Part shown: piece by piece, positions 4,638 through 58,427 of the stretch
Position numbering within the stretch: position 1 is the stretch's first letter
Layout of the letters: each line of letters begins with the position of its first letter
Assembly: GCA_964436545.1 (NCBI GenBank)
Contig: CAYTCJ010000002.1
Location: forward strand, 110,738 to 174,737
Length of the DNA stretch: 64,000 bases
Reading direction: 5' to 3'
Source of the DNA: an uncultured Candidatus Saccharibacteria bacterium
GTDB lineage: Bacteria > Patescibacteriota > Doudnabacteria > UBA920
Program-made: the position numbers and the translations under genes
Notes under the pieces: model-generated
What the model was told of the DNA's origin: nothing
Databases searched by the model: none
Seen by the model: only the letters and a program-made list of their open reading frames with translations

Positions 4638-4880
4638 TTATATCAGGACTTACACACTGAGCCAAGTTCAACAAGAGCTTGATTTGGTCTGAGTTCGGGC
4701 TTAGCCCGAACTTTAAGACCAAATCATCACGATCCAGGCATTTTCTGAGGATTTTTGGAGACGTAGTCTGACTACGGCGACAAAAACCTTGAAGAAAATA
4801 ACGAAGAAATTGGCCGGAGCCACTTTAAGGGTCGGGCTTTGCCCGCCCTATAAAGTGGCGATGCGGAAGTCCTGATATAA
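4638..4880. ncRNA. Candidate structured RNA (riboswitch-like leader) or MITE-like element bounded by a 14-bp perfect inverted repeat
   Basis: TTATATCAGGACTT (4638-4651) is the exact reverse complement of AAGTCCTGATATAA (4867-4880). Three perfect nested hairpins lie inside (4683-4723, about 4762-4776, 4818-4860). GC content is well above the flanks. Only spurious ORFs overlap. It lies between divergent genes. Confidence 0.4.
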
Positions 4881-31366: not shown

Positions 31367-31945
31367 CTATTTCTTTCTAACTTCGTTGGTAAGTTTAGAA
31401 GCCAAAGGCGACTGCTGGCCTGCATACTTATTGCCCAGTTTTTTTCTGTAAGGCACTTCTACCGGAGAGGAAACTTCCTCAAACGTAAACGCACAAATGC
31501 GCATACCGGGGTAAAGGGCCACGGGCATTACGCCTAAGTTCCCCAGTTCCATAGTGGGCTTACCCACCCACCCGGGATCAAAAATACTGGCAGTGCCGTG
31601 CACAATAATACCTAAACGGCCGAGCGATGAACGACCTTCAATTCGGCCCAATAAATCGTCAGCCAATTCCAAATTTTCCACAGTGGTAACTAAAGCAAAA
31701 TCTCCCGGTTGCATTACAAACGCTTCCCCCTTTTTTACCACAATTTCCTTCATTAGTTTGTCGGTATCCACCTTACCTTTTAAATCTATATAAGGATGGC
31801 TGGAATGTTTAAACACCCGAAAATTATTGCCTAAATGCAAATCTATAGAACACGAACCCAGTTGCTCCTTAAAATTCGGCTTAGGCGTAATTTTTATTCT
31901 ACCCTCTAACAGGGCTTTTTTTATATGCGTATCAGATAATATCAT
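31367..31945 (-). CDS. dcd: dCTP deaminase
   Basis: MILSDTHIKKALLEGRIKITP ... GSCSIDLHLG is the Dcd/dUTPase-fold signature. 192 aa. Confidence 0.85.
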   Translation of the reverse strand: MILSDTHIKKALLEGRIKITPKPNFKEQLGSCSIDLHLGNNFRVFKHSSHPYIDLKGKVDTDKLMKEIVVKKGEAFVMQPGDFALVTTVENLELADDLLGRIEGRSSLGRLGIIVHGTASIFDPGWVGKPTMELGNLGVMPVALYPGMRICAFTFEEVSSPVEVPYRKKLGNKYAGQQSPLASKLTNEVRKK

Positions 31946-32168
31946 AATTTTTTAATCCCCCCTCTTAGGGTAAGAGGGGGCTAGGGGGTGATATTGTTTA
32001 ATTCCAACCCTAAAATAATACACGAAAAAACCTTTCTTGACAAAATTTTCTCTGTGGATTAAAATAACCTAAATTATGAAATTCCAAAACCTTTCCAGCA
32101 TTATTAGCATTATTATTCCTCGCTTCAGGCAGTGGAAGAGTTTTTAATGCTTTAAATTAAATTCTCTG

Positions 32169-32200
32169 AAATCCCTGCCGTTAGGCAGGGATTTTTATTT
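32169..32200 (+). terminator. Intrinsic terminator (AAATCCCTGCC-gtta-GGCAGGGATTTTTATTT)
   Basis: Perfect stem plus T-tract inside a 1.7-kb region with no coding sequence. Confidence 0.6.
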
Positions 32201-32289
32201 TTATGGCTATATCATAAAAAAACAATCCATTAGTCCTATTGGTCATATAAATCTTATAAGACCTATATGACTTATATGACACAAACAAC

Positions 32290-32811
32290 CTTTAGACCGC
32301 CACCCCTTGCCCCCGAAGACTCGGGCGCAGAGAACATCGGCCTAAAAGGCCACTAAAAGGAGGATTTATGTTGGTGTTTCTGAAGATGGATGGGTACGTG
32401 AGTACCCAGGCGGGCCTCAATGCCCTCCAGGCCCAAGGGCTCCGGCCTGCGGGTCGCCAAGAAATCAGCGTCGCCCTAGACATGGGCGACAATGAAAAAA
32501 ACACTTATATGGTTTTTGCCAGACAGAAGGACTGGCAAACATCCTGCCCAGAGGCGTCAATCCGCCAATGGGAACCTACGCCGATCACAACGTGCCCGGT
32601 ATTGTACCGGGTTTGGATGGGAAATCCAGAGCCCCGAGAAATCCGGGAAATGTCGGTGGTGGGCGTGTGGCACGACCCCATATTTGTTGGGGTCAAGGAT
32701 GACTAACCGCGCGGGGAGGGGTGCAGAAAGATTTTGTATTTATAGGCCTTAAAACAGCCAACTAAAGCAAATTCTCTCTGCCCCCTCCCCGCAGAAAATT
32801 CTTTTTTTATC
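32290..32811 (+). other. GC-rich island of about 520 bp. Candidate structured RNA and/or foreign small gene
   Basis: GC content far above the flanks. Three or more frames are open on both strands. Multiple perfect hairpins. A 15-bp long-range stem GCGGGGAGGGGTGCAG / CTGCCCCCTCCCCGC (32710-32793) is followed by a T-run. Confidence 0.4.
32368..32706 (+). CDS. Candidate 112-aa ORF with a strong Shine-Dalgarno sequence (AAAGGAGGA, 4-nt spacer). May be spurious within a structured RNA
   Basis: Strong RBS plus ATG. GC-rich codons unlike the host genome. No recognisable domain. Confidence 0.25.
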   Translation: MLVFLKMDGYVSTQAGLNALQAQGLRPAGRQEISVALDMGDNEKNTYMVFARQKDWQTSCPEASIRQWEPTPITTCPVLYRVWMGNPEPREIREMSVVGVWHDPIFVGVKDD

Positions 32812-33012
32812 TTCTACCTTTTGACTCTAATTTTGCAGATATTATCCAACTATGGTATGGTATGAATACCTTAAACTTAGCATTCGGATTTGATTATTAC
32901 TTTTACTAATTAAATCCGAGTGCTAAGGGACCTAGCACTATTCAGCGAAGCCACAGGGTTTCCGGTTAGCCACTCTCCTCCAGCTAACCTGCTTAATAGC
33001 CCCCTGTGTGCC

Positions 33013-33042
33013 AAAAAAAATGGGGCGCTTACCGGTGCCCCA
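33013..33042 (-). terminator. Minus-strand intrinsic terminator (TGGGGCACCGGTAAGCGCCCCA + T8)
   Basis: Stem TGGGGC/GCCCCA with a 10-nt loop, followed on the minus strand by TTTTTTTT. Confidence 0.5.
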
Positions 33043-33184
33043 CTCTCAACTTTTGACAAAATTATTAAAATCCTATAAACTTTTTCTATGAAGCGATTAC
33101 AAACCAACTTAAGCCTTAACCTCCTTACCCTTACATACTTAAGGCGTAATTTGGTTTAGTTTTCAGTTAATACTTCTCTTTACC

Positions 33185-33216
33185 AAACCCCCGCCTTAAG
33201 GCGGGGGTTTTTTTAT
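33185..33216 (+). terminator. Plus-strand intrinsic terminator (AAACCCCCGCCTTAAGGCGGGGGTTTTTTT)
   Basis: Perfect 8-bp GC stem plus T7. The upstream ACUUAAGGCG (33139-33148) can pair with the 5' arm, giving an antiterminator-like alternative. Confidence 0.65.
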
Positions 33217-33425
33217 TTTACTGTAAACAGTAAAATAACCCTTCGTAGTCCCGCCATAGCGGGACGAAGTAGGGTAAATGATTTACCAAAGGAGGAAAAG
33301 TTAGTTGGTGGTCAGATTTTAGATTTTTAATTAAAAATGTTGGCTTTAAAATCAAATTTTAGGTTCTCCACAGAGTCGAACACTAAAATGATAAAAGTCT
33401 AAAATATGACCACCCAACAACAACC

Positions 33426-33460
33426 CAAAAAAATTTCTTCGGGCTTTAAGCCCGAAGACG
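33426..33460 (-). terminator. Minus-strand intrinsic terminator (CTTCGGGCTTAAAGCCCGAAG + T7)
   Basis: Perfect 8-bp stem followed on the minus strand by AAATTTTTTT. A second terminator about 115 nt downstream of the rplA terminator, delimiting a short GC-rich transcript candidate. Confidence 0.5.
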
Positions 33461-33521
33461 TATACATTCCCCGACAGGGGGATCCAGGTGTCCCCTGGCC
33501 AACCCTGTGGAACCGCCCTGT

Positions 33522-33547
33522 CCGGCGAGCCCCCGCTCGCCGGTTTT
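33522..33547 (+). terminator. Plus-strand hairpin plus T-run (CCGGCGAGC-cccc-GCTCGCCGG-TTTTT)
   Basis: Perfect 9-bp stem plus T5. Confidence 0.5.
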
Positions 33548-33573
33548 TCTTTTTATTAAAATGCCAAAAACAT

Positions 33574-33612
33574 GAAGACGGACTTCTGGGATTTTCCCAG
33601 AGGTCCGTCTTC
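33574..33612 (-). terminator. Terminator hairpin immediately downstream of rplA
   Basis: GAAGACGGACCTCTGGG-aaaat-CCCAGAAGTCCGTCTTC on the minus strand, followed by a U-rich tract. Confidence 0.55.
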
Positions 33613-33620
33613 AGATGGAC

Positions 33621-34325
33621 TTAGTAGATTTTCACTTTTATCCCCGGGCCCATAGAAGCATTCATGCTCATAGATACAATATATTGTCCTTTTAAAGATG
33701 CCGGCTTGGCCGATACAATCGCTTCGTGTAAGACTTTAAAATTTTCTTCCAAAGCCTTAGCTTTAAAATTGGTTTTGCCAATAATTTGGTGAATATTACC
33801 GCTATCATCATTTTTAAAATTTACCTTACCGCCGGCAATAGCCTTCACCATTTCCCCAATATTGGGTCCCACGGTACCGGTTTTGGGGTTAGGCATTACT
33901 CCTTTTGGCCCTAAAATTTTGGCAATCAGGGCTAATTTGGGCATTAAAGCCGGTTCAGCAATGGCAATATCAAACTCCACTTTCTCGGTTTCTTTAATTT
34001 TTTTAATTAAATCTTCCCCGCCTACCAAAACCGCACCAGCGTCTTTGGCTTCTTTTTCCTTACTTTCCGTAACAAAAGCCACCACGCGTTTTAATTTACC
34101 GGTGCCATGGGGTAAACTGGCCGTTCCGCGCACCGCTTGGTCTGTCTGCTTGGGGTCAATCCCCACTCTTACATGCACTTCCACCGAACCAACAAACTTG
34201 GTGTTTGCAGTTTGCTTGGCTAAGGCGACTGCTTCACTTAACGAATAAACTTTATTACTATCTACCAAACTGTTGTTGGCTTTGACTCTTTTGGCTAACT
34301 TAGACATTGTTTCCTTCCTCATCAC
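33621..34325 (-). CDS. rplA: Ribosomal protein L1
   Basis: L1 signature throughout. The likely true start is ATG 34305-34307 (MSKLAKR), preceded by GAGGAAGGAAACA, one of the few clear Shine-Dalgarno sequences in the window. Confidence 0.9.
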   Translation of the reverse strand: MMRKETMSKLAKRVKANNSLVDSNKVYSLSEAVALAKQTANTKFVGSVEVHVRVGIDPKQTDQAVRGTASLPHGTGKLKRVVAFVTESKEKEAKDAGAVLVGGEDLIKKIKETEKVEFDIAIAEPALMPKLALIAKILGPKGVMPNPKTGTVGPNIGEMVKAIAGGKVNFKNDDSGNIHQIIGKTNFKAKALEENFKVLHEAIVSAKPASLKGQYIVSMSMNASMGPGIKVKIY

Positions 34326-34475: not shown

Positions 34476-34850
34476 TTAGACTTCCTTTTTAGCCATACGC
34501 CAGTGGAAAAACCAAACCGGTGTAGCAACAATTAACATAGACAAAGCTGTTGGCAAATCTCTTAATTCATATCCGCCGTGATTAAAATCTGTTAATATTA
34601 AAGACTTTAACCCAAAATTCAATAAGATAATAGAACCAATCACCGCAATAACCAAAGCAACAAAAGAAACCAAATATAAATAAACTTTTTTCAAATTCAT
34701 AGGTAAGTTATTTTCTTTGGCTTCCTTGCTTGAGGCAAATAAGAAAACCAAACTAATTATTAACAATGGGATAAACCCAACTCCAAAAATAGAAAATATA
34801 ATCATATTTTTTAAACTTCCTTTTTGGCCAGACGCCAGTGACCCCACCAA
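34476..34850 (-). CDS. Small 2-TM membrane protein, paralog A (C-terminal PVWFFHWRMAKKEV)
   Basis: Two hydrophobic helices. The C-terminal motif is shared with the upstream paralog. The true start is probably internal (MNLKKVYLYLVS). Confidence 0.45.
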   Translation of the reverse strand: MVGSLASGQKGSLKNMIIFSIFGVGFIPLLIISLVFLFASSKEAKENNLPMNLKKVYLYLVSFVALVIAVIGSIILLNFGLKSLILTDFNHGGYELRDLPTALSMLIVATPVWFFHWRMAKKEV

Positions 34851-35200
34851 ACCGGACCGGCAACCAATAGCATAGCCAAGGCTTGCGAGGCATCGCGTTG
34901 TTTTTGAGCAGTCCGATTGTCTTCATTTTGCTTTTTTTGCAACGCTTCTTCTTCGGGAGAACACTTGGGCATTTCTCCGTTTGGCAAAGCTGGTTTAGAT
35001 GAATAACAGACTGACATATAATAATCTCTATCGGCTTTGGTAAACACCCAGGTTTTAAGGGCTAAATTTAAAAGCATAATCGCCCCCACTACCACAATAA
35101 TTAGCGAAATAACCGAAACCAAATAAAGATAGGCCTTTTTTAAACTCATAGAATTATTGAGCAAAATTGACAAAAACGACGAAAATGACAAAATTATCAC
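34811..35200 (-). CDS. Small 2-TM membrane protein, paralog B (C-terminal PVWWGHWRLAKKEV)
   Basis: Same architecture and motif as paralog A. The pair is inserted between rplK and rplA. Confidence 0.45.
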   Translation of the reverse strand: MIILSFSSFLSILLNNSMSLKKAYLYLVSVISLIIVVVGAIMLLNLALKTWVFTKADRDYYMSVCYSSKPALPNGEMPKCSPEEEALQKKQNEDNRTAQKQRDASQALAMLLVAGPVWWGHWRLAKKEV

Positions 35201-56021: not shown

Positions 56022-58427
56022 TTAACTCTTGGGATTTTGATTAATCCGGGCAAACACCGTGCGTAAAAATTGACGCTGGATTTCCACGCCCATATGCTCA
56101 AATAATTTTCGACTTTCCAAAATATAGTCAATTAACGGATCTTCGGAAGCATAAGAAAATAGTCCGGCTTCTTCTTTTAAAATATCCATTAATTCCAAAT
56201 GCCCGCTCCAATTCTGGTCTATAATTTGCAAAACCAAATTTTGACAAGCCGAATAAACTTCCGGATTGGTTTTTAACCTTTCCATTTGGCCGGTTAATTC
56301 CCGAACAATCCCATTCACCGCTGTCTGAAACCGAAACGGCCTTTGGGAAACAAACACCGGATTAAACCATTCGTTTAAATTCTCCCCCCAAGTTTTTTTA
56401 GCATTTAATTCGGCTAAACCACTTCCGGTAATTTTTAACCCAAAAATCGCATTTAATTCTTGAGTGATTAACTCGGGGACTTGAAGCGCTAAAATATGCT
56501 CTACGGTTTCCGTAATGGCATTTTGCACAAAAGCTTCAAAACCTGTGGGGTTTTCTAACAAGCTGTCTCTTAATTTATAAACCTCAAACCGTTGATAGTT
56601 AGTTACGCTATCATACTTATATAAATAGATGCGACCATCAAAATTCTTACTTTCCACAAAATCTTGCGCTTTTTTAAAAGCCAAATCCAAACTCGGCGCG
56701 CTAATGTATTCATCTTCCGGAATATCAAACTCTTCCATGGCGTCAATAATGCTTTCACTGCCAAACAACCGCATAATTTCATCTTCCATGGAAATTAAAA
56801 ATTGCGATTCTCCCGCATCACCTTGCCTGCCACTTCTCCCAACTAATTGATTATCGATCCGGCGTGACTCGTGCCGTTCTGTGCCCAGCACAAACAGACC
56901 ACCCACATCGGCCACCCCTTGGCCCAATAAAATATCTGTGCCTCTCCCGGCCATATTCGTAGCCACGGTAATCATGCCTCTTTGTCCGGCTTTGGCGATT
57001 TTTTCACTTTCCGCCTTGTGGTCTTTAGCGGTCAAGAGTTGATAGGGTAAATTTTGTTCATCTAAAATTTCCGAAATTAAATGAGCGATCTCCACATTTC
57101 TGGCGCCAATTAAAATGGGCTGACCTTTACTATTAATATGCTTAATTTTTTTTATTAATCCGGCAAATTTGCCTTTTTCAGTTTTAAAAAACAAATCATT
57201 ATGGTCAATTCTGGCTAACGGCCGATTGGTGGGGATTTGCACTACATCTAACTTATAGACTCGGTTAAATTCCTCCCTTGCAGACATCACCGTGCCACTC
57301 ATGCCCGAAAGTTTTTCGTACATGGGAAAAAAATTCTGAAAAGTAATACTGGCAGCGGTCCGGTCGGCTTCTTTCACTTTAACCTTTTCTTTGGCCTCAA
57401 TGGCTTGGTGCACGCCATCGGTAAACCTTCTCCCCGGCAATACCCGGCCGGTAAACTCATCTACAATTTCTACACCTTCCGGTGAAATAATGTAATCCCT
57501 ATCTCGCTCAAATAACACTCTGGCTCTTAAGCACACGTCTAAATAAAAAGCGAACATGGGTTTGTCTTTGGAAAAAATCGTTTCCCCCAATAATTTTTCC
57601 ACTCGATTCAAACCACTATCTGTCATGCTCACGGCCTTATTTTTATAATCCACTTTAAAATCTTCCTCTTCCACCAGCCTCGCACATAGCTCGGTGAATT
57701 GAGTATAATAATTTCTTTCTTCCTTCAAAGGCTCGGCAATAATTAATGGCGTGCGAGATTCATCTATTAAAATCGAATCAATTTCATCTACAATGCCAAA
57801 ATGCAACGGATGCTTGAGCCTTAACACTCGGTCGGATTTTGCATACACCAAATTATCCCGTAAATAATCAAAACCCACTTCTTGATTGGTTACGTAAGTT
57901 ACATCACTCAAGTAAGCTTTGCGCCTTTGCTCGCTTTTCATGGTAGAAGTCACATAACCTACGCTCATTCCCAAAGCTTCATACAGCTTACCGTTTAATT
58001 TAGCGTCTCGTTCTGCCAAATAATCATTGGTGGTAATAATGTGCACACCTTGTCCGGTAAGCGCATTTAAATATACCGGCATGGTTTCGGTTAAAGTTTT
58101 ACCTTCGCCCGCTTTCATTTCCGCCACTCGGCCTTGGTGAATAACCATACCCGCTAAAATTTGCACATCAAAAGGCACCCGATTTAATACCCGCCGTGCT
58201 GTCTCGCCCACCACTGCGAAAGCGGGAATTAACAGCCTGTCTAAAGCTTTGCCTTTTTGCAAATCGTCTTTAAACGCCGAACCCGCGAGCTTTAATTCCT
58301 TATCGCTCCAGGTTTTTAACTCCTCTCTTTCCTTAACAATTAACTTAACCTTATCTTCCAAACGGCTAATATAATTTCTGTCCAAAAAGTCGTTAAATTT
58401 TTGTTTTAGATTTTGTGTAAATTGCAT
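56022..58427 (-). CDS. secA: Preprotein translocase ATPase SecA
   Basis: DEAD-like motor (MKAGEGKTLT Walker A, the VDEIDSILIDESRTPLII Walker B (DEID)/helicase motif II region), PPXD, HSD. 801 aa, lacking the C-terminal Zn finger. Confidence 0.9.
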   Translation of the reverse strand: MQFTQNLKQKFNDFLDRNYISRLEDKVKLIVKEREELKTWSDKELKLAGSAFKDDLQKGKALDRLLIPAFAVVGETARRVLNRVPFDVQILAGMVIHQGRVAEMKAGEGKTLTETMPVYLNALTGQGVHIITTNDYLAERDAKLNGKLYEALGMSVGYVTSTMKSEQRRKAYLSDVTYVTNQEVGFDYLRDNLVYAKSDRVLRLKHPLHFGIVDEIDSILIDESRTPLIIAEPLKEERNYYTQFTELCARLVEEEDFKVDYKNKAVSMTDSGLNRVEKLLGETIFSKDKPMFAFYLDVCLRARVLFERDRDYIISPEGVEIVDEFTGRVLPGRRFTDGVHQAIEAKEKVKVKEADRTAASITFQNFFPMYEKLSGMSGTVMSAREEFNRVYKLDVVQIPTNRPLARIDHNDLFFKTEKGKFAGLIKKIKHINSKGQPILIGARNVEIAHLISEILDEQNLPYQLLTAKDHKAESEKIAKAGQRGMITVATNMAGRGTDILLGQGVADVGGLFVLGTERHESRRIDNQLVGRSGRQGDAGESQFLISMEDEIMRLFGSESIIDAMEEFDIPEDEYISAPSLDLAFKKAQDFVESKNFDGRIYLYKYDSVTNYQRFEVYKLRDSLLENPTGFEAFVQNAITETVEHILALQVPELITQELNAIFGLKITGSGLAELNAKKTWGENLNEWFNPVFVSQRPFRFQTAVNGIVRELTGQMERLKTNPEVYSACQNLVLQIIDQNWSGHLELMDILKEEAGLFSYASEDPLIDYILESRKLFEHMGVEIQRQFLRTVFARINQNPKS

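What the first reader, a model, noticed from the sequence alone, without database searches (positions are those of the whole stretch)
31946..33620. 1.7-kb protein-free region downstream of rplA carrying six intrinsic terminators in both orientations and at least two short GC-rich transcript candidates
Six intrinsic terminators lie in a region with no convincing ORF. Three are on the plus strand (32169-32200, 33185-33216, 33522-33547) and three on the minus strand (33013-33042, 33426-33460, 33574-33612). This implies several independent short transcription units. Two stand out. The first is a plus-strand unit of about 350 nt (about 32860-33216) whose terminator 5' arm (CGCCUUAAGG) can alternatively pair with an upstream ACUUAAGGCG, giving classic terminator/antiterminator geometry with no downstream gene. 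The second is a minus-strand unit of about 125 nt (33550 to 33426) made of GC hairpins between the rplA terminator and a second terminator. These are plausible homes for housekeeping sRNAs such as SRP RNA, 6S or tmRNA fragments. Alternatively the region could be a decayed mobile-element scar.
Basis: seen in the sequence. Interest (0 to 1): 0.5.

Follow-up and report, generated by a model that had tools for sequence, protein, structure and literature searches.

The report
Two leader-peptide attenuators beside rplA
The supposedly empty 1.7-kb gap after the ribosomal protein L1 gene of this tiny-genome (CPR, Doudnabacteria-like) bacterium holds two classic-style switches, in which translating a tiny isoleucine-rich or leucine-rich peptide decides whether transcription stops, each placed in front of a small protein of unknown function.

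Summary
The gap (31946-33620, between dcd and rplA) and its six hairpin+U terminators are real, but it is not protein-free and holds no housekeeping sRNA: Rfam and tRNA scans find nothing. Two look-alike plus-strand units dominate. Each has a TTGACA-17-TAnnnT promoter, an ATG 6-10 nt after the -10 box with no Shine-Dalgarno, a 23-codon ORF and an intrinsic terminator. Unit A encodes MKFQNLSSIISIIIPRFRQWKSF (Ile run). Unit B encodes MKRLQTNLSLNLLTLTYLRRNLV (Leu run). Both recur in about 15-25 related CPR loci, always antiparallel to rplA. Only the Ile or Leu run is conserved in the peptides, with synonymous codon changes. A segment at the 3' end of each ORF mimics the terminator's 3' arm and co-varies with the 5' arm, forming an antiterminator. 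These are ribosome-mediated transcription attenuators. Unit A precedes a real 112-aa gene (32368-32706; dN/dS 0.34). A 35%-identical homologue sits behind the same leader on a distant contig. Unit B's cargo, a small protein family ending W-x-x-x-RCC, is decayed here. In some relatives ilvA lies immediately upstream of the Leu unit, where this window has the 112-aa gene. A 180-nt structured element (32871-33052, 98% conserved) remains unexplained. This is a known mechanism in a new lineage with unknown cargo.

The parts
31958..31980 (-). Hairpin in the dcd 5' UTR (CCCCCUCUUA-CCC-UAAGAGGGGG on the minus strand). Its 3' arm contains the SD-like GAGGGGG just upstream of the dcd ATG at 31945.
   Evidence: Read from the sequence. 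Not conserved in L001 (65% identity). Not part of the attenuators.
32015..32043 (-). Sigma-70-like promoter for dcd (TTGTCA-17-TATTAT), back to back with promoter A.
   Evidence: 10 of 12 positions match.
32037..32065 (+). Promoter A: TTGACA-17-TAAAAT.
   Evidence: 11 of 12. 32037-32084 is 100% identical in L001. The same promoter type sits in front of every unit A homologue.
32076..32147 (+). Leader ORF A, 23 codons: MKFQNLSSIISIIIPRFRQWKSF*. The Ile-codon run is at 32100-32117. There is no SD, and the ATG lies 10 nt after the -10 box.
   Evidence: All nine BLAST-detected homologues keep the ATG, the reading frame and the Ile run. Codon changes are synonymous (ATT/ATA/ATC, AGG>CGG, TAA>TAG). 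N-terminal indels are in frame (23, 41 and 37 aa). 22 loci were found by architecture scan and 25 by covariance model.
32128..32136 (+). Segment 2 of unit A (GGCAGUGGA). It mimics the terminator's 3' arm and pairs with 32172-32179 to form the antiterminator.
   Evidence: Fold without segment 4: -20.1 kcal/mol. Own-versus-cross duplex test p about 1e-4. Column test 68.2% paired against 62.0 +/- 1.8, covariation 0.22 against 0.14, 0 of 500 shuffles.
32168..32203 (+). Terminator A: 12-bp stem, GUUA loop, U-rich tail. Segment 3 is 32172-32179 and segment 4 is 32184-32191.
   Evidence: -20.8 kcal/mol. 95% of cells paired and 9 of 11 pairs compensatory across 31 sequences.
32233..32280 (.). Palindrome / repeated heptamers (GTCnTAT, GACnTAT) between terminator A and the ORF X ribosome-binding site. 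Function unknown.
   Evidence: I4, I13. L001 has four GTCYTAT copies at the same place.
32357..32706 (+). SD (AAGGAGGA, 32357-32364) and ORF X (32368-32706, 112 aa). This is the GC-rich (58%) small protein gene downstream of unit A.
   Evidence: GC island. 78% aa identity to P0002. dN/dS 0.34 with a 3-nt in-frame indel. Remote homologue P0123 (35% identity) sits behind an Ile leader on L166. No Pfam, NCBIfam or PADLOC match.
32712..32813 (+). Long interrupted hairpin (CGGGGAGGGGUGCAGAAAG ... CUCUCUGCCCCCUCCCCG) followed by a U run. Probable terminator of ORF X.
   Evidence: Read from the sequence. Self-complementarity seen. 92.5% identical in L001. An equivalent hairpin follows the ORF X homologue on L166 (-37.5 kcal/mol).
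32871..33052 (+). Conserved structured element of unknown function. It has three hairpins: 32876-32927; 32950-33012, with a CACUCUCCUCCA loop; and 33020-33045, which is preceded by A8. Read on the minus strand, the third hairpin is the '33013-33042 terminator'.
   Evidence: 97.8-98% identical in L001, L003 and L005, against 91-92% for the flanking genes and dS of about 0.4. Plus-strand fold z -6.6 against -3.8 for the minus strand. No homologue in 76 other loci, in the rest of the window, or in metagenome and viral scans. Absent from L166.
33053..33081 (+). Promoter B: TTGACA-17-TAAACT.
   Evidence: 10 of 12. Conserved in front of all unit B homologues.
33088..33159 (+). Leader ORF B, 23 codons: MKRLQTNLSLNLLTLTYLRRNLV* (8 Leu). 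The ATG lies 6 nt after the -10 box, so the mRNA is probably leaderless. Segment 1 is 33101-33119 and segment 2 is 33139-33157.
   Evidence: 17 loci carry ..QNL(N/S/L)L(L/S)LS/TL.. peptides. The 1:2 hairpin is seen (I6). A compensatory A-U>G-C change and a U-A>U-G change occur against L001.
33185..33216 (+). Terminator B: 11-bp GC-rich palindromic stem plus U7.
   Evidence: -21.8 kcal/mol. With segment 1 masked, segment 2 pairs with CGCCUUAA of the 5' arm (-16.9 kcal/mol). Own-versus-cross test p about 1e-4.
33238..33275 (+). 17-bp hairpin without a U tail, resembling a REP element.
   Evidence: I18. It occurs after both terminator A and terminator B in L001, with a compensatory U-A>C-G change.
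33290..33421 (+). SD (AAAGGAGG) plus a 5-codon mini-ORF, followed by a long hairpin (30-nt arms) whose 3' arm buries the ATG at 33406.
   Evidence: I2; z -4.1. The arms are conserved and the loop is replaced in L001. The same layout is seen in L163/L164.
33406..33521 (+). Decayed copy of the post-Leu cargo gene. In relatives this is a 46-92 aa protein ending W-x-x-x-R-C-C. The window copy has lost its SD and, through a 31-nt deletion, its C-terminus. The 72-codon reading frame that starts here (33406-33624) runs on past 33521, through terminator T3, to 33624.
   Evidence: 55% identity to L001.
33522..33553 (+). Terminator T3, which ends the cargo gene of unit B.
   Evidence: 100% identical in L001, where it starts 2 nt after the cargo stop codon. 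A similar terminator is present on L166.
33556..33613 (-). rplA terminator: 19-bp-arm hairpin at 33573-33613, then CAUGUUUUUGGCAUUUU.
   Evidence: (I5).

Best explanation
The gap is a compact, lineage-conserved regulatory locus. Its core is two ribosome-mediated (leader-peptide) transcription attenuators, transcribed away from dcd and towards rplA.

Unit A (32037-32203):
- A strong promoter makes an mRNA with little or no 5' leader. A ribosome translates a 23-codon ORF containing the Ile run I-I-S-I-I-I.
- If Ile-tRNA is plentiful, the ribosome reaches the stop codon (32145-32147) and covers segment 2 (32128-32136). The terminator (32168-32203) then forms and transcription stops.
- If the ribosome stalls in the Ile run (32100-32117), segment 2 stays free. 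It pairs with the terminator's 5' arm (32172-32179) around a small hairpin, and RNA polymerase reads through into ORF X (112 aa, function unknown).

Unit B (33053-33216):
- This is the four-segment version, like the trp attenuator. Leu codons lie in segment 1.
- Stalling there breaks the 1:2 hairpin and frees segment 2 (UUAAGGCG) to pair with CGCCUUAA of the terminator.
- Its cargo gene, the RCC-ending family, is intact in relatives but degraded in this genome.

Shown: the architecture, conservation of the ORFs and of the Ile/Leu runs, the terminators, co-variation of the antiterminator, and the coding status of ORF X.

Inferred: transcription starts, translation of the leaders, the amino-acid response, and what the cargo proteins do.
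For: 1. Same architecture twice in the window, and nowhere else in 64 kb.
2. Nine of nine BLAST-detected unit A homologues keep the ATG, the frame and the Ile run. N- and C-termini vary in length and even in frame relative to the conserved GGAAGAGUUUU. Ile codons vary synonymously.
3. A covariance model finds unit A in 25 loci at E<1e-5. Leu-type units occur in 17 loci. All lie on the strand opposite rplA, in the order rplA-Leu-Ile.
4. The gap from the -10 box to the ATG is 5-13 nt in all units, with no SD.
5. Terminator: 95% of cells paired and 9 of 11 pairs compensatory.
6. Antiterminator:
- Segment 2 tracks the terminator arm. Examples are GCGAAGG with GCGAAGG in L028 and L047, GAGGCUGAGG with AGAGGCGGGG in L020, and GGCAGAGG with GGCGGAGGG in L058.
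- Own-versus-cross duplex energies are -10.8 against -8.7 kcal/mol for unit A and -11.3 against -9.2 kcal/mol for unit B. Permutation p is about 1e-4 for each.
- On an alignment not fitted to the antiterminator, covariation is 0.22 against 0.14 +/- 0.02 (0 of 500 shuffles), with the peak at register 0.
7. Window energetics (kcal/mol): unit A antiterminator -20.1 against terminator -20.8. Unit B 1:2 hairpin -18.6, antiterminator -16.9 and terminator -21.8.
8. Segment 2 ends 2-22 nt before the end of the stop codon, so a terminating ribosome would cover it.
9. Each unit is followed by an SD and an ORF in the same direction. ORF X has dN/dS 0.34. A 35%-identical homologue sits behind an Ile leader on the diverged contig L166, which repeats the whole layout.
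10. Link to isoleucine metabolism:
- In L006, L163 and L164, a threonine dehydratase gene (ilvA; PF00585, E 3.6e-27) lies immediately upstream of the Leu unit. That is where the window has ORF X and the conserved element.
- An unrelated contig, L157, has the Ile-run leader MISIIIIQLSGGGFICV plus a terminator upstream of ilvA.
11. Ile/Leu-rich attenuator peptides are an established mechanism elsewhere (PMC5794164, PMC11857589).
Against: - There are no expression data of any kind. Transcription starts, termination and translation are all inferred.
- The regulated genes in this window have no detectable link to Ile or Leu metabolism. ORF X has no family or fold match, and unit B's cargo is degraded.
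[quoted passage not shown] The usual rationale for such attenuators therefore does not obviously apply.
- The column-based antiterminator signal is modest (68% paired), and the small P2 hairpin shows no significant covariation.
- Unit A in the window has no clear segment 1. An untranslated transcript would therefore read through.
- The 10-nt gap from the -10 box to the ATG in unit A implies a 3-4 nt leader without an SD, which needs leaderless-type initiation.
- The peptides match no known leader family. Rfam Leu_leader and Phe_leader scores are far below threshold.
Confidence: 0.75

Rival explanations
1. Independent trans-acting small RNAs. The promoter-to-terminator units of about 130 nt, and the GC-rich hairpin stretch at 33426-33552, are non-coding sRNA genes, and the short ORFs are incidental.
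For: Each unit has its own promoter and terminator and folds well (z -4.6 and -5.5). The stretch 33426-33552 folds with z -5.35 on the minus strand. The RNA-level motif GGAAGAGUUUU is conserved in different reading frames. Terminated attenuator RNAs can act in trans in other bacteria (PMC6614838), so a dual role is possible, especially for unit B, whose cargo is dead here.
Against: The ATG, the reading frame through the Ile or Leu run and a stop codon are kept in every homologue, with synonymous changes and in-frame indels. No Rfam family matches. The stretch 33426-33552 is 55% identical to L001 and overlies a coding gene in relatives.
Confidence: 0.08
2. The 23-codon ORFs encode functional micropeptides, such as hydrophobic type I toxins or membrane peptides. 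The hairpins are simply their gene terminators.
For: The ORFs are conserved, have strong promoters and encode hydrophobic cores (SIISIII, LLLSLL). Leader peptides with functions in trans are known (PMC7298713).
Against: Only the homo-amino-acid run is conserved, while termini vary in length, sequence and frame. The hydrophobic stretch (7-9 residues) is too short to span a membrane. A third unit type in relatives is Thr/Lys-rich, not hydrophobic. Co-variation of the ORF's 3' end with the terminator arm has no reason to exist for a plain terminator. A downstream SD and ORF always follow.
Confidence: 0.07
3. Decaying remnant. The locus is a scar of lost amino-acid biosynthesis operons (ilv, leu) or of a mobile element, no longer functional, and the small ORFs downstream are junk.
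For: ilvA lies immediately upstream of the Leu unit, where the window has ORF X, in a few relatives but is absent from the window and the other 79 loci. The post-Leu gene is degraded in the window. Cargo differs between lineages. The stretch next to rplA is highly variable.
Against: Promoters, leader ORFs, terminators and antiterminator pairing are maintained across lineages whose rplA is only 60-80% identical. Between the window and L001, dS is about 0.4, yet promoter A plus the ATG is 100% identical and unit B is 90-94% identical. ORF X is under purifying selection and is conserved at 35% identity behind the same leader on L166. No similarity of ORF X or the element to ilvA was found. No transposase or repeat copies were found.
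Confidence: 0.06

Closest known systems
E. coli ilvGMEDA attenuator (ilvL leader peptide) and other branched-chain amino-acid leader-peptide attenuators, e.g. S. aureus ilv-leu (PMC5794164) and C. glutamicum ilvBNC (PMC11857589)
   Same: A short ORF with a run of Ile/Leu(/Val) codons, followed by an intrinsic terminator with a competing antiterminator. Ribosome position decides termination. From my memory, ilvL ends ..VVVIIIPPCGAALGRGKA, which resembles ..SIISIIIPSPLGKGRVLV in L013. In L006, L163 and L164 an ilvA gene lies immediately upstream of the Leu unit, where the window has ORF X.
   Different: There is no SD and the mRNA is leaderless or nearly so. The gene behind the leader in this window is a 112-aa orphan protein, not a biosynthetic operon. 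The host is a reduced-genome CPR bacterium. No sequence-level match to curated leader families. Unit A in the window lacks a clear segment 1.
E. coli trp / leu operon attenuators (four-segment 1:2, 2:3, 3:4 model)
   Same: Unit B has all four segments. Regulatory (Leu) codons lie in segment 1, the stop codon lies just after segment 2, and the antiterminator and terminator are mutually exclusive.
   Different: Rfam Leu_leader scores 23.3 bits against a gathering threshold of 50. The cargo is a 46-92 aa protein family ending W-x-x-x-RCC in relatives, and is degraded here.
Attenuator-derived trans-acting products (rnTrpL sRNA and peTrpL peptide of Sinorhizobium; PMC6614838, PMC7298713)
   Same: These are precedents for a terminated leader RNA or leader peptide having its own function. 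That could explain why unit B stays conserved although its cargo is dead in this genome.
   Different: There is no evidence here for any trans target. This is only an analogy.

Membership tests
Ribosome-mediated (leader-peptide) transcription attenuator | A short ORF with its own start codon at the 5' end of the transcript, directly downstream of a promoter | tested here: met
   Promoters scoring 11/12 and 10/12. The ATG lies 10 and 6 nt after the -10 box, and 5-13 nt in 48 units of relatives. The ORF is kept in all homologues.
Ribosome-mediated (leader-peptide) transcription attenuator | A cluster of codons for one amino acid (or a few) that is the conserved feature of the peptide | tested here: met
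   Unit A has 5 Ile among 6 consecutive codons, and 5-13 Ile in homologues. Unit B has 8 Leu in 23 codons. The rest of each peptide varies, and the codons vary synonymously.
Ribosome-mediated (leader-peptide) transcription attenuator | An intrinsic terminator shortly after the leader's stop codon | tested here: met
   The terminator starts 12-35 nt after the stop codon. 95% of cells paired and 9 of 11 pairs compensatory.
Ribosome-mediated (leader-peptide) transcription attenuator | A mutually exclusive antiterminator using the terminator's 5' arm, placed so that a ribosome at the stop codon blocks it and a ribosome stalled at the regulatory codons does not | tested here: met
   p about 1e-4 for each unit; the partner ends 2-22 nt before the end of the stop codon; energies; covariation 0.22 against 0.14, 0 of 500 shuffles. 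The signal is modest in the column-based test.
Ribosome-mediated (leader-peptide) transcription attenuator | A downstream gene in the same orientation that is functionally tied to the sensed amino acid | tested here: inconclusive
   Downstream SD and ORF are present. ORF X has no known function and unit B's cargo is decayed. ilvA lies directly upstream of the Leu unit, where the window has ORF X, only in L006, L163 and L164, and its 5' flank could not be recovered.
Ribosome-mediated (leader-peptide) transcription attenuator | Read-through that responds to charged-tRNA supply | not testable with these tools
   This needs reporter assays or transcriptomics under Ile or Leu limitation.
Curated leader families (Rfam Leu_leader RF00512, Phe_leader RF01859, Trp_leader RF00513; NCBIfam leader peptides) | A score at or above the family's curated threshold | tested here: not met
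   Leu_leader scores 23.3 bits against 50, Phe_leader 23.3 against 55, Trp_leader 20.4 against 41. There are no NCBIfam hits for either peptide.
Housekeeping sRNAs (SRP RNA, 6S RNA, tmRNA, RNase P RNA) | A match to the Rfam covariance model, or ARAGORN detection of tmRNA | tested here: not met
   0 gathering hits in the whole window. None of these families appears even at E<=10 in the gap. No tmRNA or tRNA.
Mobile-element scar / MITE | Terminal inverted repeats, target-site duplication, multiple copies, or transposase remnants | tested here: not met
   No other copy in the window, in 76 related loci, or in metagenome and viral pattern scans. There is no transposase ORF. An 8-nt repeat, CTTTTGAC, at 32830 and 33048 is within chance expectation (read from the sequence).

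The most novel reading that the evidence does not exclude
Doudnabacteria-like CPR bacteria keep a conserved array of leaderless leader-peptide attenuators next to rplA. The array holds Leu and Ile units, and in many relatives also a Thr/Lys/Met type and perhaps an aromatic type. Each unit gates a tiny, fast-evolving orphan protein rather than a biosynthetic operon. On this reading the array is an amino-acid-by-amino-acid starvation sensor, and its outputs are unknown effectors through which a nutritionally dependent episymbiont responds to what its host supplies.
Probability: 0.35. Interest if true: 0.75.

Novelty: new variant of a known kind. Interest (0 to 1): 0.6.

Why it matters
- Leader-peptide attenuation is a textbook mechanism tied to amino-acid biosynthesis operons. 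Here it appears in a candidate-phyla-radiation lineage with a reduced genome, in leaderless form, and as a conserved array beside a ribosomal protein operon.
- The genes it gates are small orphan proteins, or ilvA in a few relatives. That raises a concrete, testable question: what does an organism presumed to depend on others for amino acids switch on when Ile or Leu charging drops?
- It is also a practical warning. Gene callers, Rfam and a careful human reader all saw an 'empty' spacer where there are at least four translated ORFs. I found no paper on leader-peptide attenuation in CPR in the held library.

Tried and rejected
- **Rfam and tRNA scans.** Rfam at gathering and permissive thresholds gave nothing but terminator-driven sub-threshold hits. 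The tRNA/tmRNA scan found none.
- **The 180-nt element.** A covariance model of the 180-nt element against 80 related loci found only itself and L005. The weak L025 hit is just an A-run plus a terminator hairpin. A pattern scan for the element in metagenome and viral collections gave 0 hits.
- **ORF X and relatives' cargo proteins.** There were no Pfam, NCBIfam or PADLOC matches. The word-indexed homologue search for the RCC protein found nothing.
- **Structure of ORF X.** AlphaFold gave pLDDT 43.6 with 2 sequences and 53.5 with 3. Foldseek against the PDB gave no hit below E 0.35 and only weak C-type-lectin-like topology, so I did not use it.
- **Is ORF X or the element a remnant of ilvA?** I found no blastn or tblastx similarity.
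- **Are cargo proteins depleted in the cognate amino acid?** Ile is 4.8% against 7.2% background after Ile leaders, and Leu 6.8% against 9.4% after Leu leaders. Both groups are generally poor in AT-rich-codon residues, so this is not specific.
- **P2 hairpin covariation.** Not significant: 25 of 500 shuffles reached it.
- **Thr/Lys-type units.** The automated own-versus-cross test gave p 0.27. By eye the segments CCUCCCAAA / UUUGGGA / CCUCCCAAAC / GGGAGG fit a four-segment model.
- **A third unit in the window?** The architecture hit at 56093 is the C-terminus of secA, so it is a false positive.
- **Metagenome scan with a unit A pattern.** It returned 72 loci. Only 6 have a promoter, an Ile ORF and a terminator, and all 6 are again in the rplA/dcd context. 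No new genomic context was found.


Full report
**What is at the coordinates.**
- The gap 31946-33620 lies between the start of dcd (31367-31945, minus strand) and the stop of rplA (33621-34325, minus strand). Pfam confirms both genes.
- Relatives of the rplA protein carry record titles naming mostly Candidatus Doudnabacteria or other Patescibacteria/CPR MAGs, so the organism is a CPR bacterium.
- Rfam finds nothing at gathering thresholds anywhere in the 64-kb window. ARAGORN finds no tRNA or tmRNA.
- A permissive Rfam scan of the gap gives only sub-threshold hits, and all of them sit on the two strong plus-strand terminators. Examples are rnk leader, Leu, Phe and Trp leaders, PyrR and various sRNAs.

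**Checking the observation.**
- All six hairpin-plus-U sites are present.
  - Four are picked up by the consensus scan.
  - The minus site at 33042-33013 shows in the minus-strand fold as a hairpin followed by U8.
  - The rplA terminator is a 19-nt-arm inverted repeat.
- The raw count is only about 2 sd above shuffles. The main sites are nevertheless conserved in relatives.
- The claim that the region is protein-free fails.
  - A GC-rich island (58% against about 37% background) carries ORF 32368-32706 behind AAGGAGGA.
  - The close relative L001 (flanking genes 91-92% identical) keeps the SD, start, stop and frame, with one 3-nt indel.
  - For this ORF, dN/dS is 0.34 with dS 0.41. The neighbouring dcd gene has dN/dS 0.07.

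**The two look-alike units.**
- Unit A: TTGACA-17-TAAAAT (32037-32065), ATG at 32076, MKFQNLSSIISIIIPRFRQWKSF*, terminator at 32168-32203.
- Unit B: TTGACA-17-TAAACT (33053-33081), ATG at 33088, MKRLQTNLSLNLLTLTYLRRNLV*, terminator at 33185-33216.
- BLAST of the gap against 80 rplA-anchored loci from other genomes found the 3' half of unit A in nine loci. All nine lie on the strand opposite rplA.
- In all nine there is a TTGACA promoter, an ATG a few nucleotides after the -10 box, an intact short ORF running through the Ile codons, and a terminator.
- Substitutions are typical of coding sequence: ATT/ATA/ATC, CCT>CCC, AGG>CGG, TAA>TAG. N-terminal length differences are in frame (23, 41 and 37 aa).
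- The nucleotide motif GGAAGAGUUUU near the 3' end is read in different frames in different loci. It is therefore conserved as RNA, not as peptide.
- Architecture scans and a covariance model extend unit A to 22-25 loci and unit B to 17 loci.
- The covariance model also detects unit B copies weakly, which suggests that the two units are related.
- The gap from the -10 box to the ATG is 5-13 nt everywhere, with no SD. The leader mRNAs are therefore leaderless or nearly so.

**Terminator and antiterminator.**
- The terminator helix is 95% paired over 31 distinct sequences, with compensatory changes at 9 of 11 pairs. The alignment was fitted to this helix.
- In every locus a segment inside the 3' end of the leader ORF resembles the terminator's 3' arm and can pair with the 5' arm. 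It changes when the terminator changes.
  - GCGAAGG with GCGAAGG in L028 and L047.
  - GAGGCUGAGG with AGAGGCGGGG in L020.
  - GGCAGAGG with GGCGGAGGG in L058.
- A register-free test compared each locus's own upstream region with the terminator arms of other loci.
  - Unit A: own -10.8 against cross -8.7 kcal/mol, permutation p about 1e-4.
  - Unit B: own -11.3 against cross -9.2 kcal/mol, permutation p about 1e-4.
- On the model-built alignment, which was not fitted to this pairing, the antiterminator columns are 68.2% paired against 62.0 +/- 1.8. Covariation is 0.22 against 0.14 +/- 0.02 (0 of 500 shuffles), and the maximum is at register 0.
- Window folding energies (kcal/mol) fit the model.
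  - Unit A forms the antiterminator (-20.1) if segment 4 is not yet made. The terminator is -20.8.
- Unit B forms a 1:2 hairpin (-18.6). Its terminator is -21.8.
- Segment 2 ends 2-22 nt before the end of the stop codon. That is where a terminating ribosome would cover it.

**What lies downstream.**
- Every unit is followed, in the same direction, by an SD and a small ORF.
- After Leu units the ORFs form one family of 46-92 aa, with the motif ..EVFLSPxEWRE.. and the ending W-x-x-x-R-C-C.
- The window copy shares the first three codons (MTT) but has lost its SD and, through a 31-nt deletion, its C-terminus. It reads through terminator T3.
- After Ile units the cargo differs between lineages.
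- An exhaustive HMMER search with ORF X found one remote homologue (E 2.4e-6; 35% identity). Its 1.7-kb contig, L166, repeats the entire layout:
  - Ile leader (MKMFFSQNNIIISIIITSPRLGSGKV), then terminator, then SD and the ORF X homologue;
  - a long hairpin, then Leu leader (MSQAFTNNQNLLLSLLIPVRGLALRW), then terminator, then SD and a small ORF;
  - a T3-like terminator, then convergent rplA.
- ORF X has no Pfam, NCBIfam or PADLOC match and no usable structure model.

**Link to isoleucine.**
- In L006 (rplA 82% identical to the window) the gene ending about 10 nt before promoter B is a threonine dehydratase (C-terminal regulatory domain PF00585, E 3.6e-27).
- Two contigs from other samples, L163 and L164, show ilvA, then a Leu leader (MTHDKHLTQNLLLMLPRGVC), then a terminator, then the same SD-plus-hairpin layout.
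- ilvA therefore lies immediately upstream of the Leu unit in these relatives, where the window has ORF X and the conserved element. Its 5' flank lies beyond the contig ends.
- An unrelated contig, L157, has an Ile-run leader plus a terminator about 180 nt upstream of ilvA. This shows the same logic elsewhere.
- A metagenome-wide scan with a unit A pattern returned 72 loci. Only six have the full architecture, and all six are again in the rplA/dcd context.

**Mechanism and comparison.**
- The best reading is two ribosome-mediated attenuators, as described under Best explanation.
- They meet four of the structural criteria that define the class. The cargo criterion is unresolved and the physiological response cannot be tested here.
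- They are not members of any curated leader family.
- Comparable Ile/Leu-rich attenuator peptides are documented upstream of ilv-leu in S. aureus (PMC5794164) and of ilvBNC in C. glutamicum (PMC11857589).
- I found no paper in the held library on such attenuators in CPR bacteria.

**Unexplained remainder.**
- The stretch 32871-33052 is 98% identical among the window, L001, L003 and L005. Synonymous sites have diverged by about 0.4 and the flanking genes are 91-92% identical.
- It folds much better on the plus strand (z -6.6, with several G-U pairs) than on the minus strand (z -3.8).
- It carries a CACUCUCCUCCA (anti-SD-like) loop. It ends in an A8-plus-hairpin that doubles as the minus-strand '33013-33042 terminator'.
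- It is absent from L166 and from all other loci, so it is a lineage-specific insertion between the ORF X terminator and promoter B.
- Either strong constraint or recent transfer could explain its conservation. Its function is unknown.

**Verdict.**
- The interpretation as housekeeping sRNAs is not supported, although the terminator/antiterminator insight was right.
- The mechanism is a known kind. The lineage, the leaderless form, the array organisation and the orphan cargo make it a new variant worth experimental follow-up.

Noticed in passing
L013 10857, L016 10337, L019 10742, L021 6122, L023 4299, L025 6315, L027 4047, L029 10151, L036 10515, L058 10771, L008 9709 (all minus strand of the locus): A third unit type lies beyond the Ile unit in many relatives: promoter, then a Thr/Lys/Met-rich short ORF (e.g. 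MNNILSLTTKTTKMTKKSSGFGFGTKNMV), then a terminator, then SD and a small ORF. Its segments CCUCCCAAA / UUUGGGA / CCUCCCAAAC / GGGAGG look like a four-segment attenuator. The usual order is rplA - Leu - Ile - Thr/Lys. It is absent from the window.
   Followed up: partly
L014 10133 (minus): An aromatic-rich short ORF with the same architecture (MYKSTQNFWFYFTPAVETGSFELNS). It may be a Phe/Trp/Tyr-type unit.
   Followed up: no
L001 4669-4818, L005, L006 2220-2040, L023, L036, L037, L035: The family of small proteins after the Leu leader ends in W-x-x-x-R-C-C followed by the stop codon (e.g. MTTKRLRLVFKQDGEKIEVFLSPQEWREMLEAQRLTEPPAIRWASARCC). It has no match in Pfam or NCBIfam and is not called in the protein database.
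   Followed up: partly
L006 2934-2662; L163 3-1039; L164 1-1034: A threonine dehydratase gene (ilvA) lies immediately upstream of the Leu unit in a few relatives of a lineage usually thought to lack amino-acid biosynthesis. The gene's 5' flank is off the contigs.
   Followed up: partly
L157 4724-4860 and L162 about 1065-1200: On unrelated contigs, BCAA-type leaders ending ..SGGGF(I/A)C(V/L)* (MKANSFHQPNMISIIIIQLSGGGFICV; MSSKQINKGLLLIVLLTHSGGGFACL) are each followed by a terminator. On L157 the leader lies upstream of ilvA.
   Followed up: partly
window 32871-33052: A 180-nt element that is more conserved than the neighbouring protein genes. It is predicted to form three hairpins on the plus strand, with an anti-SD-like loop CACUCUCCUCCA. 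It is restricted to the closest relatives.
   Followed up: yes
window 33290-33421; L001 4575-4690; L163 1200-1290: An SD plus a 5-codon mini-ORF is immediately followed by a long hairpin whose 3' arm buries the cargo gene's ATG. The arms are conserved and the loop is variable. It looks like translational coupling or masking of the post-Leu gene.
   Followed up: partly
window 33436-33458; L001 about 4683-4706; L006 about 2201-2174: A hairpin lies at the same position inside the 5' part of the post-Leu ORF in three lineages, with three different sequences. The structure is kept and the sequence is not.
   Followed up: no
window 33238-33275; L001 3432-3464 and 4531-4568: A 17-bp hairpin without a U tail follows the attenuator terminators. 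It occurs twice in L001 and shows a compensatory change. It resembles a REP element.
   Followed up: partly
window 32233-32280: Repeated GTCnTAT/GACnTAT heptamers form a palindrome between terminator A and ORF X. There are four direct copies in L001. This may be a protein-binding site.
   Followed up: no
window 34476-35200: Two DUF5671 membrane-protein genes are inserted between rplK and rplA. rplA is followed by this locus and dcd rather than by rplJ-rplL. Several relatives have one or two response-regulator genes between rplA and the leader units.
   Followed up: partly
window 31958-31980: A hairpin in the dcd 5' UTR has a 3' arm containing the SD-like GAGGGGG. It is not conserved in L001.
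   Followed up: no
window 1-64000: There is no tRNA gene and no Rfam family at gathering threshold in 64 kb.
   Followed up: yes
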